Below, piece after piece: positions 4,761 to 11,327 of a stretch of 23,097 nucleotides of DNA. The position numbers and the translations under genes were made by a program. The notes below the pieces were generated by a model, which worked only from the letters and a program-made list of their open reading frames with translations, was not told the DNA's origin and made no database searches. How positions within the stretch are numbered: the first letter of the stretch is position 1; the number at the start of each line of letters is the position of its first letter. The stretch is from Candidatus Omnitrophota bacterium. Its GTDB lineage: Bacteria > Ratteibacteria > UBA8468 > MWAK01. The stretch lies in assembly GCA_043797665.1 (NCBI GenBank), contig JAZDPL010000044.1, positions 1-23,097 of the forward strand, given 5' to 3'.

Positions 4761-6012
4761 AATAATAATTTTTCTCCTCGTCTCCTCGCCCCTCCCGGCC
4801 GAAAACGTAGGGGTCGGATTTATCCGACCCGCGGGCTTGATAAATCAAGCCCCTACCCCGGTCAAATTAGGCCTCGAAATACTAATCGAAAAAAAACCGG
4901 ATTTACTGAAAGGCAAAAAGGTGGGACTCATCACCAACCGGACCGGTGTTGACAGCCAACTCCGCTCTTCCATTGACCTCATCATCTCTTTGCCTGACGT
5001 TAAACTGGCGGCACTATATGCACCGGAACACGGAATCAGGGGAGGCTTACGGGACATTATTCACCACAATGTGGATAAAAAGACCGGTGTCCCGGTATTC
5101 AGCCTCTACGGTGCCACCAGAAAACCGACCCGGGAAATGCTCAAAGACGTTGACGTTCTGGTATTTGACCTCCAGGATATCGGTTCCCGAACCTACACCT
5201 ATATTTCTACCCTGAAACTCTGCATGGAAGAATCCGCAAAATACCGGATACCGTTCATCGTGCTGGACAGACCCAATCCGATCAACGGCATCCTTGTTGA
5301 CGGACCGGTCCTTGACCCGGAATTTGAATCATTCATCGGTACCGGACCAATCGCCTATCTGCACGGGATGACTATCGGCGAGATTGCCCGATACTTTAAC
5401 GAGGAGTTTCAAATCCACTGCGACCTGGAAGTCGTCCCGATGGAAGGATGGCAGCGTACGATGACCTGGAGAGACACCGGACTTGTCTGGACTCCGCCCT
5501 CACCCAATATCCCCGAACCGGACTCAGCCTGGTTCTATCCGATTACCGGAATCCTGGGCGAATTATCCCTGGTAAACGAAGGGGTGGGTTATACCCTGCC
5601 CTTTAAAATCGTCGGCGCACCCTGGATTGATGCGGAAGAAATCTCCGGACTTTTAAACCGCCGGAACATCCCCGGCGTCTATTTTCAACCCTTCAATTTC
5701 ACGCCCCTTTCCCACATTCATAAGGATAAGTTCTGCGGTGGGTTTAAGATTATCATCACGGACGAAAAATTATTAAGACCGGTAGTGGTTGGTTATCACA
5801 TTATGGACGTCCTTTTGCGCAAATATCCCAAACAATTCAACTTTTCGCTTCCGGTATCGAAAAAACGGCTCCGGACATTTGATAACTCAAATGGTATCGA
5901 CACAATCCGGCTAAGACTTGAAAGTGGTGTACCGGTGGACGAAATTGTGAAGACCTATCAGCCCGGGCTGGAAGAATTCATAAAGAAGCGCGAACGCTAC
6001 CTGCTCTACTAA
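4753..6012 (+). CDS. namZ: Exo-beta-N-acetylmuramidase NamZ family (DUF1343); start codon uncertain
   Basis: Motifs VGLITNRTG, LYAPEHGIRG, VFSLYG, FDLQDIGSRTYTYIST, VLDRPNP, HGMTIGEIA, WTPPSPNIP, NEGVGYTLPF. In-frame candidate starts are ATG 4672 and TTG 4837; a signal-like NKIIIFLLVSSPLPA follows GTA 4753. Confidence 0.88.
   Translation, partial: VNKIIIFLLVSSPLPAENVGVGFIRPAGLINQAPTPVKLGLEILIEKKPDLLKGKKVGLITNRTGVDSQLRSSIDLIISLPDVKLAALYAPEHGIRGGLRDIIHHNVDKKTGVPVFSLYGATRKPTREMLKDVDVLVFDLQDIGSRTYTYISTLKLCMEESAKYRIPFIVLDRPNPINGILVDGPVLDPEFESFIGTGPIAYLHGMTIGEIARYFNEEFQIHCDLEVVPMEGWQRTMTWRDTGLVWTPPSPNIPEPDSAWFYPITGILGELSLVNEGVGYTLPFKIVGAPWIDAEEISGLLNRRNIPGVYFQPFNFTPLSHIHKDKFCGGFKIIITDEKLLRPVVVGYHIMDVLLRKYPKQFNFSLPVSKKRLRTFDNSNGIDTIRLRLESGVPVDEIVKTYQPGLEEFIKKRERYLLY
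4807..4856 (+). repeat. 50-bp GTAG REP doublet (REPIN-like), copy 1, in frame with namZ
   Basis: GTAG-GGGTCGGA-TTTA-TCCGACCC-GC-GGGCTTGA-TAAA-TCAAGCCC-CTAC: two inverted GTAG hairpins, identical to 10563..10612. Confidence 0.93.
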
Positions 6013-6339
6013 GGGGTTGTTAAACAATAAAATTGACTATTTGGAGTCCCAGATTTGAAGTCAGTGCAAGGCGCGACACGGGTCCCCTTGTCATAGGATT
6101 GACAAGGGAGGTTGCTGTGCCCACTGTGGCACATAACCGAGGAGCAACGCCGCAATGGCCCAAAGATGGGACCCCTACCTTGATGGTAGGGAACCCGTCC
6201 CAAAGGGCCAGGTCGCTTTTGGGCTGCGACTGCGTCGCTCATTACTTCCGTACCACAGGGGGTACGCCAGCTTCTTCGCTCCTTGTCTCGCTCCAAAATC
6301 GCCTCTGGCAAATAGTCAATTTTATTGTTTAACAACCCC
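6013..6339. mobile_element. 327-bp MITE (non-autonomous element) with perfect 31-bp TIRs and a TAA target duplication
   Basis: GGGGTTGTTAAACAATAAAATTGACTATTTG (6013-6043) is the exact reverse complement of 6309-6339. TAA lies at 6010-6012 and 6340-6342. No transposase motif inside. Confidence 0.92.
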
Positions 6340-6341
6340 TA

Positions 6342-10073: not shown

Positions 10074-10121
10074 CGGGGTCGGATTCATCCGACCCGCGGG
10101 CTTGATAAATCAAGCCCCTAC
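10072..10121 (+). repeat. 50-bp GTAG REP doublet, copy 2 (intergenic, slightly degenerate)
   Basis: Same stems as copies 1 and 3. The left GTAG reads AACG (overlapping the TAA stop) and the first loop reads TTCA. Confidence 0.9.
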
Positions 10122-10136
10122 ACAATTCTGGCATTT

Positions 10137-11327
10137 ATGGAAAAAAAGTTATCTAAATTAAAAAAACTGCACGACTATTTTTCAGTTACCTCCATCCCCA
10201 ATAATTTTTCGGAGATAATAAAAGAAGAATTGGAAATCAATTTGGAAGGCAAATACGGCCCATACTTTCTTAAGAATCCGATCCTGATTGCCCCCGGGCA
10301 ACTCACCGTGAATACTAATCAGATTTCAAGGATAAAAGATGCCGGTTACGCGGGTTGCATCCTGAAATCTGTGGTGGGCGAAGACAAAAAGGGTAACTGC
10401 TCTATGGGATGTCAAAGAAGAAAGGCAACTTATACCCAAACAGTTTATGATACTGATGACCGGAAAGGCTCCTTTCCCATTATTCACTGGGATGGCCGGG
10501 GTGACACCAGAACGCTTTCGGAATATCTTCTGTTTGCCCGGGAAGCAATAAAATATTCTGATGTAGGGGTCGGATTTATCCGACCCGCGGGCTTGATAAA
10601 TCAAGCCCCTACAAGTATTGATGTAAATTTATTTAATGCGTTTGTATTAGTTGCCTCAACCCTTTGCCATTTACCTTCACCCAGGGAAGAGATTAAAGAA
10701 GAAGAGTGGCTTTTTACGGCCAAGAATCTTTTTAGCCTGGGATACAACCTTTTAGAAATTGACTTCTGCCCTTCTTTAAAAAAGGAAGACGGTTTAATTG
10801 TGGAAAAAGAGAATATCCTGCGGTGGTATAAGACTGTCCCTTCTCTGATAAAATCTGCGTCTCCCCGGATTATGGTCTATCCTAAATTACTCAACCTTGA
10901 TTGGGGTTTGGATTTTCAAATCCGGATGGTGGCAGCAGCACAAGAAGGAAAATCTGATGGTATAATAGTAGCCAATAGAATCTTCAAGGAAGAGTATAAC
11001 TCTGCCCACGGAGGAAAAGAGTTGAGAGAACGAAATTTGCGTATGGTAAAAGAGATCAAGAAAACCTTCCCGGATATCCCCATTTCTGCTACCGGAGGAA
11101 TTTATTCTGGCCGGCACGTCTTTGATTACCTTAATGCCGGTGCAGAAAATGTTCAACTCCTAAGTTATATTATGGGTAAAGTCAACACCCCTTTTGCCAG
11201 AAAAACAGGTAATAAACTTGAAAAGGTCTTCCACAATCTAATGTTAGACCCGGAAGACGGTCTTATTTCGTGCATGTTACAATTGTGTCACCCTGAGCGC
11301 CGGCGAAGGGTCTCGTCTTTTGGATGA
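10137..11327 (+). CDS. Dihydroorotate/dihydropyrimidine dehydrogenase-like FMN TIM-barrel protein
   Basis: LKNPILIAPG, ILKSV, LEIDFCP, VYPKL, DGIIVAN, PISATGGIYSG..YLNAGAENVQL. It is divergent from true PyrD. Confidence 0.72.
   Translation: MEKKLSKLKKLHDYFSVTSIPNNFSEIIKEELEINLEGKYGPYFLKNPILIAPGQLTVNTNQISRIKDAGYAGCILKSVVGEDKKGNCSMGCQRRKATYTQTVYDTDDRKGSFPIIHWDGRGDTRTLSEYLLFAREAIKYSDVGVGFIRPAGLINQAPTSIDVNLFNAFVLVASTLCHLPSPREEIKEEEWLFTAKNLFSLGYNLLEIDFCPSLKKEDGLIVEKENILRWYKTVPSLIKSASPRIMVYPKLLNLDWGLDFQIRMVAAAQEGKSDGIIVANRIFKEEYNSAHGGKELRERNLRMVKEIKKTFPDIPISATGGIYSGRHVFDYLNAGAENVQLLSYIMGKVNTPFARKTGNKLEKVFHNLMLDPEDGLISCMLQLCHPERRRRVSSFG
10563..10612 (+). repeat. 50-bp GTAG REP doublet, copy 3, in frame inside the DHOD-like CDS
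   Basis: Identical to 4807..4856. Begins at codon 143 and encodes VGVGFIRPAGLINQAPT. Confidence 0.95.

What the first reader, a model, noticed from the sequence alone, without database searches (positions are those of the whole stretch)
4807..10612. A 50-bp REP doublet that writes the same 17-aa peptide into unrelated enzymes
Seen: three copies (4807-4856, 10072-10121, 10563-10612) of GTAG-stem8-TTTA-stem8-GC-stem8-TAAA-stem8-CTAC. The two halves share architecture but have different stems (GGGTCGGA vs GGGCTTGA). Copies 1 and 3 are identical, in the same orientation and frame, and give VGVGFIRPAGLINQAPT in a NamZ ORF and a DHOD-like ORF. Three of the six frames of the element contain stops. 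Known: GTAG REPs/REPINs are normally extragenic and linked to RAYT (TnpA-REP) HUH transposases; in-frame coding insertion is best known from Rickettsia palindromic elements. Inference: a recently active REPIN family is colonising coding sequence in this lineage. No RAYT is in the window.
Basis: partly seen in the sequence, partly recalled or inferred. Interest (0 to 1): 0.85.

Follow-up and report, generated by a model that had tools for sequence, protein, structure and literature searches.

The report
Hairpin repeats inside bacterial enzyme genes
An uncultured bacterium carries about 290 copies of a 50-base double-hairpin DNA repeat, mostly between genes but about one in nine in frame inside intact genes, where the repeats are predicted to add tolerated protein loops; they are likely spread by a transposase encoded elsewhere in the genome, a process already described in other bacteria.

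Summary
Largely confirmed, but a known kind. The element is a GTAG-tagged REP heterodimer (REPIN): about 289 elements genome-wide, 0 arms in shuffled DNA. A 143-aa RAYT with intact HUH and tyrosine lies on another contig, flanked by these REPs. The insert in the DHOD-like gene is real: 23-24 extra residues, absent from 110 of 110 homologues, in a predicted helix-to-strand loop, with 75 of 76 conserved columns intact. The NamZ copy is shared with a sister species, but its translation is uncertain because the start codon is unresolved. Genome-wide, 32 of 289 copies lie deep in 27 genes (including LeuRS, ValRS, MurD, Fmt, PolA, MnmG), sixfold fewer than random, in several frames. So there is no single peptide and no coding-sequence preference. 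Intragenic GTAG dimers are published (Di Nocera 2013), and this scan noted this family on other pieces of this genome.

The parts
4807..4856 (+). REPIN copy 1 (two different perfect 8-bp hairpins, each with a GTAG foot, head to head), in frame at the predicted mature N-terminus of NamZ
   Evidence: same place and frame in G001
4753..6012 (+). NamZ gene. Signal-peptide-like stretch 4753-4806 has no canonical start; candidate starts are ATG 4672 (blocked by TAG in G001), non-canonical codons at 4762-4770, or the TTG at 4837 inside the REPIN
   Evidence: Pfam NamZ_N and NamZ_C; orthologues; dN/dS 0.12 against G001 downstream of the insert
10072..10121 (+). REPIN copy 2, left GTAG foot lost, intergenic between the DHDPS-family stop and the DHOD-like start (15 nt downstream)
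10137..11327 (+). DHOD/DPD-like TIM-barrel gene, 396 aa, host of copy 3
10563..10612 (+). REPIN copy 3, in frame, residues 143-159, in a low-confidence loop between helix 127-140 and strand 170-176 of the model
10613..10650 (+). Flank that came in with copy 3: an AT-rich stretch shared with other copies, ending in an 18-bp motif found 39 times in the genome; encodes residues 160-172, including the conserved Phe169 and the start of the predicted strand
   Evidence: 39 hits against 0 shuffled; 35 of 39 next to this REP; Ala168 in 0 of 110 homologues
10548..10562 (+). Left flank of copy 3; resembles both the common left flank of other copies and the host codons, so the boundary is ambiguous
23092..23097 (+). 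Start of a fourth copy, cut by the contig end

Best explanation
This 50-bp element is a GTAG-tagged REP heterodimer present about 290 times in the genome; it is likely copied by the genome's single REP-flanked HUH tyrosine transposase, and likely survives inside genes only where the frame is kept and the extra residues fall in a predicted loop. Shown: structure, copy number, REP-flanked RAYT, in-frame inserts absent from homologues, sixfold depletion from gene interiors, and shared flanks of variable length. Inferred: the RAYT binds the single-stranded GTAG hairpin, cuts at some distance from it, and joins a piece with variable flanks into new sites, often replacing some host bases. Variable flank length lets a 50-bp core give net gains divisible by three (33, 63, 66, 72, 93 bp). 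Purifying selection then keeps copies between genes, copies whose TAG becomes the stop codon, and copies in tolerant loops. The peptides are by-products with no common function.
For: 509 of 516 arms carry GTAG; 463 of 516 stems pair perfectly, including 139 of 187 variant stems; 213 of 214 pairs are heterodimers. RAYT at G000:C47 is flanked by 7 arms of several stem variants, with HLH and YxxxNP intact; it hits NF047646 (E 2.7e-17) and E. coli TnpA-REP 4ER8 (E 5e-6). Close RAYT homologues (at least about 50% identity) occur in 7 of 10 genomes with the REPIN. Among the other 51 the best match is one at 45% (G052), and three more have weak matches. These REPs flank the RAYT in G000, G001, G006, G011 and G013. 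Classes: 190 intergenic, 54 overlapping a 3' end (45 with the REP's TAG as stop), 3 at a 5' end, 42 inside, of which 32 are at least 40 codons from either end. Hosts include genes with one full-length hit in the assembly: leuS, valS, murD, fmt, polA, mnmG. All 5 internal sites with G001 orthologous flanks differ by multiples of three. 156 of 479 ends share flanks with another copy, against 0 in shuffles. In vitro cleavage by TnpA-REP 5' or 3' of the REP and at distant sites is reported in PMC8266576 (passages).
Against: No activity was shown. The RAYT scores 63 bits against an NCBIfam cut-off of 80. The close RAYT was not found in 3 REPIN-positive genomes (G003 91%, G007 77%, G008 83% complete), and in G005 and G009 it is not flanked by the canonical doublet. 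Empty-site alignments show no clean, constant junction or fixed cleavage dinucleotide. Gene conversion could also spread copies with flanks. Gene calls come from my own hexamer model. The DHOD-like insert rests on a single contig. No translation evidence was available.
Confidence: 0.8

Rival explanations
1. Overwrite model: new hairpins preferentially replace existing hairpins, including those of unrelated families, at fixed slots between genes and in protein loops. The route would be strand invasion at shared flanks or hairpin-directed cutting, so slots persist while their occupants change.
For: Where G000 has only this family and G001 lacks it, 22 of 44 orthologous junctions hold a different family in G001, against 42 of 191 repeat-free junctions (odds ratio 3.5, p=3e-4). 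Within G000 there is no excess co-occupancy (41 of 220 against 364 of 1922). Of 123 repeat-bearing junctions, 21 keep the family, 53 hold only another family and 49 none. The MnmG loop near residue 510 holds five different inserts in five genomes and none in G002; LeuRS (about 357, 632), ValRS (about 422), PolA and CobD are similar. The AT-rich flank motif precedes this family in 35 of 39 G000 cases, but mostly TGTC-type elements among the 10 G001 hits. REPORTH reports overwriting among REPIN types (10.1101/2024.10.14.618302, passages).
Against: One genome pair, 888 kb of G001, and regex-defined families. Loss followed by independent gain at a few tolerant sites gives the same pattern, especially in proteins, where tolerant loops are few. 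The flank motif is present in both genomes at only 1 of 15 sites that have it in either. The ValRS 604 and MurD 242 inserts have no repeat counterpart in the relatives examined.
Confidence: 0.3
2. The host keeps a hairpin at particular positions because it is useful (mRNA stability, ribosome pausing, nucleoid binding); any family will do, and in-frame copies tune translation.
For: Strong RNA fold (-29 kcal/mol, z -5.2); 201 of 220 junction copies lie between co-directional genes, a median 17.5 nt from the upstream stop; slot persistence across families.
Against: Co-directional junctions are 1824 of 2142 anyway; 49 of 123 repeat-bearing junctions are empty in the sister species; no expression data.
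Confidence: 0.2
3. The peptide VGVGFIRPAGLINQAPT is a selected functional tag, or the element targets coding DNA.
For: That frame is the commonest among internal doublets (11 of 21, p=0.03), and it recurs in proteins of other genomes (DNA Pol I, Lnt, AmmeMemoRadiSam fusion).
Against: Sixfold depletion from gene interiors; three other frames are used; hosts are unrelated; unrelated repeats fill the same loops in relatives; stem variants change the residues while keeping base pairs.
Confidence: 0.05
4. The decorated genes are pseudogenes or misassemblies.
For: Metagenome assembly; about 14 copies sit in a 135-200 bp repeat, many at contig ends; NamZ lacks a clear start.
Against: 75 of 76 conserved columns intact and model pLDDT 91.9 for the DHOD-like protein; NamZ dN/dS 0.12; the NamZ insert recurs in G001 and the AmmeMemoRadiSam insert in P0115; essential hosts have one full-length hit each.
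Confidence: 0.05

Closest known systems
Intragenic GTAG REP dimers, e.g. Opitutus terrae GTAG-17/18/19 (Di Nocera 2013, PMC3733652; passages, section 15 and part 1 of 3 of supplement 3 read, the whole supplement searched)
   Same: GTAG-tagged head-to-head dimers with 1-2 bp spacers and a preference for heterodimers; TAG used as stop codon; the same 15-16-aa peptide in many unrelated enzymes, some with two inserts
   Different: Different sequence family (its peptides are not in that table) and lineage; that paper found inserts in like genes mostly at different sites, whereas here unrelated families recur in the same loops
TnpA-Y1 subclass 2.4 = RAYT Group 4 (Quentin 2018, PMC6006769, passages and 30 supplement rows; Bertels 2017, 10.1101/119735, passages)
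   Same: REP stem starts with three G-C pairs; all 30 displayed table rows beginning GTAGGGG are subclass 2.4; several REP subfamilies flank one gene; in-frame REP insertion is a known habit of the subclass
   Different: HUH-to-Tyr distance is about 55 aa here against a median of 88; Group 4 flanking 16-mers average 14 copies per replicon, whereas the top 14-mer here occurs 194 times; subclass not tested by phylogeny
REPIN-RAYT systems of Pseudomonas, Stenotrophomonas and E. coli BIMEs (PMC8266576; 10.1101/2021.07.10.451892; 10.1101/2024.10.14.618302; passages)
   Same: Inverted REP doublets, hundreds of copies, single RAYT, occupants of a locus change over time
   Different: Described as almost exclusively extragenic with a fixed RAYT locus; here 11% are internal, the RAYT has different neighbours in G000, G001, G006 and G011/G013, and turnover crosses repeat superfamilies
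Rickettsia palindromic elements (RPE-1; cited in PMC3733652 and PMC3184786 passages; original paper not read)
   Same: In-frame palindromic inserts in housekeeping proteins
   Different: RPEs are about 105-146 bp; that no mover is assigned to them is recalled; this element is 50 bp with a candidate RAYT

Membership tests
GTAG REP / REPIN with RAYT | GTAG tetranucleotide at the 5' foot of a hairpin | tested here: met
   509 of 516 arms
GTAG REP / REPIN with RAYT | Hairpin kept through sequence variation | tested here: met
GTAG REP / REPIN with RAYT | Inverted doublets, dispersed at high copy | tested here: met
   214 pairs, 158 of them 50 bp; 289 elements on 65 of 93 contigs
GTAG REP / REPIN with RAYT | Mostly extragenic | tested here: met
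   190 intergenic and 54 at 3' ends of 289; 32 deep inside genes
GTAG REP / REPIN with RAYT | Single-copy Y1 HUH transposase gene flanked by the same REPs | tested here: met
   G000:C47:11213-11644 with 7 flanking arms, H68-L-H70 and Y124; NCBIfam score 63 is under the cut-off of 80
GTAG REP / REPIN with RAYT | RAYT stays at one locus (vertical inheritance) | tested here: not met
   Different neighbouring genes in G000, G001, G006 and G011/G013. This is a typical property of RAYTs within a species, not part of the REP definition; these genomes are different species
GTAG REP / REPIN with RAYT | RAYT cleaves and joins its single-stranded REP | not testable with these tools
   needs biochemistry
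TnpA-Y1 subclass 2.4 / RAYT Group 4 | REP stem beginning with three G-C pairs after GTAG | tested here: met
TnpA-Y1 subclass 2.4 / RAYT Group 4 | Long HUH-to-Tyr spacing (median 88), often from an in-gene REP | tested here: inconclusive
   about 55 aa here with no in-gene REP; a weaker homologue (L168) shows such an insert and shares the N-terminal motif
TnpA-Y1 subclass 2.4 / RAYT Group 4 | Phylogenetic placement with subclass members | not tested
   reference proteins of the subclass were not fetched
Rickettsia RPE | Element of about 105-146 bp | tested here: not met
   50-bp core against the table in PMC3184786; works like an RPE, is not a member
Rickettsia RPE | Decorated proteins are expressed | not testable with these tools
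   no sequencing run was listed
Classical MITE (terminal inverted repeats plus target-site duplication) | Constant target-site duplication | tested here: not met
   flank composition shows no constant duplication; empty-site alignments show replacements of variable length

The most novel reading that the evidence does not exclude
A Group-4-type RAYT drives a full REPIN population and works by overwriting: it pastes hairpins with variable flanks over existing hairpins of unrelated superfamilies. Fixed junctions and protein loops of essential enzymes then act as revolving slots whose peptide is rewritten from species to species, and carried flank DNA can even replace a conserved beta-strand.
Probability: 0.25. 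Interest if true: 0.7.

Novelty: new member of a known kind. Interest (0 to 1): 0.37.

Why it matters
The core phenomenon is published, so on its own it adds a lineage and a sequence family. The value lies in three details. Flank co-transfer gives a simple way for a 50-bp element to land in frame, and bears on the open question of how REPs actually move. Cross-family turnover at the same junctions and loops extends the 'overwriting' hint from Pseudomonas REPINs to unrelated repeats and to coding sequence. The decorated essential enzymes form a natural map of insertion-tolerant loops. In practice, these repeats also distort gene starts and ends in annotation of this lineage.

Tried and rejected
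Sequencing runs: none was listed for window:4200-11400, so reads and expression stayed unchecked; this is not evidence either way. A DHOD-like orthologue was not found with this query in G001 (70% complete) or in 6 of the 7 other family genomes, so there is no empty site at DNA level. The second Y1_Tnp hit (G000:C3, 450 aa) lacks the HUH motif and has no flanking doublet, so it was rejected as the mover. No constant target duplication or junction motif was found. The 'followed by REP' count was wrong through a faulty pattern and was redone. The peptide search saw only 9 candidates of 217-693 aa, so it says nothing on the proteome-wide spread. Literature searches: REP+GTAG+intragenic+RAYT gave 2 papers; replacement at the same locus, 1 irrelevant paper; REPIN+RAYT+coding+in-frame, 4; Omnitrophota+repetitive extragenic palindromic, 0. 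Searches were seen as listings. None of the passages read reports cross-superfamily swaps in coding loops, but the library lacks most subscription papers, bioRxiv supplements are closed, and the figures and the docx supplement of PMC6006769 were not read. From the 42 'inside' calls, 10 were dropped as within 40 codons of a gene end; 2-3 of the remaining 32 have uncertain hosts (C65 fused ORF, C16 and C61 shared-flank pair). The total of 289 includes a few copies probably duplicated at contig ends.
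Full report
Observation. Copies at 4807-4856 and 10563-10612 are identical 50-mers of two different 8-bp hairpins, each with a GTAG foot, joined head to head by GC. The copy at 10072-10121 has lost its left GTAG and is intergenic. The two hairpins fold separately (DNA -17.1 kcal/mol, z -5.8). Three frames are closed in the reference copy. A fourth copy begins at the last six bases of the window and continues on contig C71.

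Genome-wide family. The assembly (2.69 Mb, 93 contigs, 86% complete) holds 516 arms against 0 in a shuffle; 509 have GTAG, and 213 of 214 pairs combine two different stems. A broader definition gives 289 elements on 65 contigs, a few probably duplicated at contig ends. The doublet occurs in 10 of 61 related genomes searched, all in two families. Exact matches in the public genome collection fell in 9 assemblies, titled Candidatus Omnitrophota (3), unclassified bacterium (5) and WOR-3 (1). Named homologues of the DHOD-like protein include Ca. Omnitrophica and Ca. Ratteibacteria. The lineage is inferred from these.

Mover. Two Y1_Tnp matches exist. The one at C47:11213-11644 is 143 aa with H68-L-H70 and Y124-xxx-NP, matches NF047646 below its cut-off and E. 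coli TnpA-REP, and is flanked by 7 arms of several stem variants. Close homologues occur in 7 of the 10 REPIN-positive genomes; among the other 51 the best is one at 45% identity. They are flanked by these REPs in five genomes, at different loci. The REP shape fits subclass 2.4 / Group 4 (PMC6006769), a group not usually tied to large REPIN populations; the subclass was not tested by phylogeny. That this RAYT moves the element is inferred.

DHOD-like host. Of 111 aligned proteins only the window's has the extra segment (56 residues against 32-33 in 109 others and 28 in one), and 75 of 76 columns conserved at 90% or more are kept. The model (pLDDT 91.9) puts the insert in a low-confidence loop between helix 127-140 and strand 170-176, and the fold matches dihydropyrimidine and dihydroorotate dehydrogenases. 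From general TIM-barrel knowledge, helix-to-strand loops lie opposite the active site. The inserted DNA is longer than 50 bp: the following 38 bases match the flanks of other copies and end in an 18-bp motif found 39 times (0 shuffled), 35 of them beside this REP. Those bases encode residues 160-172, so element-borne DNA likely supplies Phe169 (in 100 of 110 homologues) and the start of the strand; Ala168 is in 0 of 110. About 88-103 bases came in for a net gain of 72, which implies some host bases were replaced (inference).

NamZ host. The insert is at the same place and frame in G001 and absent from the 10 other orthologues shown. It follows an Ala-Glu that aligns with the predicted signal-peptide end of family orthologues. 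The gene downstream is under purifying selection (dN/dS 0.12). The upstream ATG at 4672 is cut off by TAG in G001. The hydrophobic stretch before the insert is kept hydrophobic but has no canonical start in G000, and the REP itself offers an in-frame TTG (ATG in G001). I put translation of the peptide here at about 60%.

Where copies lie. With my own gene calls (2298 genes, 90% coding) 190 are intergenic, 54 overlap a 3' end, 3 a 5' end and 42 are inside. In 45 of the 54 the REP's TAG is the stop, and in most of the 24 cases with a G001 match the protein length changes by only a few residues. Thirty-two copies in 27 genes lie at least 40 codons from both ends, 11% against 66% expected. Among 21 internal doublets the frames split 11, 7, 2 and 1. 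Hosts include LeuRS, ValRS, MurD, Fmt, PolA (twice), MnmG, RimO, agmatinase, beta-galactosidase and membrane proteins; the first six have one full-length hit each in the assembly, leuS also a short 51% fragment. All 5 internal sites with G001 flanks differ by multiples of three. Flank sharing is general: 156 of 479 ends, lengths 12 to over 50 bases, which would supply the length variation needed for in-frame landing.

Turnover and slots. Using 100 of about 240 G001 contigs (888 kb), 73 sites could be compared: 13 hold the same REP, 20 a TGTC-type element, 9 another GTAG family, 27 none of these and 4 are masked. At orthologous junctions a different family is present in 22 of 44 cases against 42 of 191 controls (p=3e-4), while within G000 co-occupancy is not raised. 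In proteins, the same loops of MnmG, LeuRS, ValRS, PolA and CobD hold unrelated repeats in different relatives, though the ValRS 604 and MurD 242 inserts have no such counterpart. This fits either overwriting or loss and regain at tolerant sites; one genome pair cannot separate them.

Comparison and verdict. Di Nocera 2013 lists dozens of intragenic GTAG dimers giving one recurring peptide in unrelated O. terrae enzymes, heterodimer bias and TAG stops. REPORTH describes REPIN overwriting in Pseudomonas. Earlier notes of this scan reached the same reading on other pieces of this genome. The element passes the testable defining features of a GTAG REP/REPIN and works like a Rickettsia palindromic element without being one. 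Verdict: new member of a known kind, interest 0.37. The flank co-transfer and cross-family slot turnover are the parts worth following.

Noticed in passing
window 6012-6341: About 330-bp MITE-like element with long terminal inverted repeats (arms 6004-6043 and 6309-6348) between namZ and the next gene; 23 full-length relatives in the genome at 73-100% identity, each with its own matching ends; 5 in the G001 part examined.
   Followed up: partly
window 11286-11359: A TGTC-type palindromic repeat encodes the last residues of the DHOD-like protein, so that gene carries two unrelated repeats.
   Followed up: partly
window 877-898: A short hairpin repeat of another family (about 35 copies in the genome) between the pilB-like ATPase and the ankyrin gene.
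   Followed up: no
window 1608-4760: The methyl-accepting chemotaxis protein seems to lack part of the conserved signalling tip (weak MCPsignal match; the motif is recalled), and its G001 orthologue has an earlier stop; it abuts namZ where other genomes have different genes.
   Followed up: no
window 11344-20684: A higher-GC block (0.51-0.54 against 0.39-0.45 around it) of carbohydrate-active genes led by a prepilin-like DUF1559 gene, with no copy of this REPIN; possibly recently acquired.
   Followed up: no
window 22597-23097: The window end is a repeated sequence shared with several contig ends (C40, C66, C59, C10, C81), probably the end of a multi-copy element.
   Followed up: no
G000:C49:11166-11300 and about 13 other places: A 135-200 bp near-identical repeat containing one REPIN, mostly at contig ends; it may be the end of a larger mobile element that carries the REPIN passively.
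   Followed up: partly
G000:C61:90515-90591 and similar: 77-bp forms in which a small second hairpin is nested in one arm; earlier scan notes describe these nested mini-hairpins.
   Followed up: no
L001:1375-2727 (G000:C3): 450-aa Y1-like protein without the HUH motif, fused to a membrane segment and a C-terminal domain.
   Followed up: no
L216 (G006 leuS): G006 LeuRS carries this REPIN twice, once in the same loop as G000 but with different stems and boundaries.
   Followed up: partly
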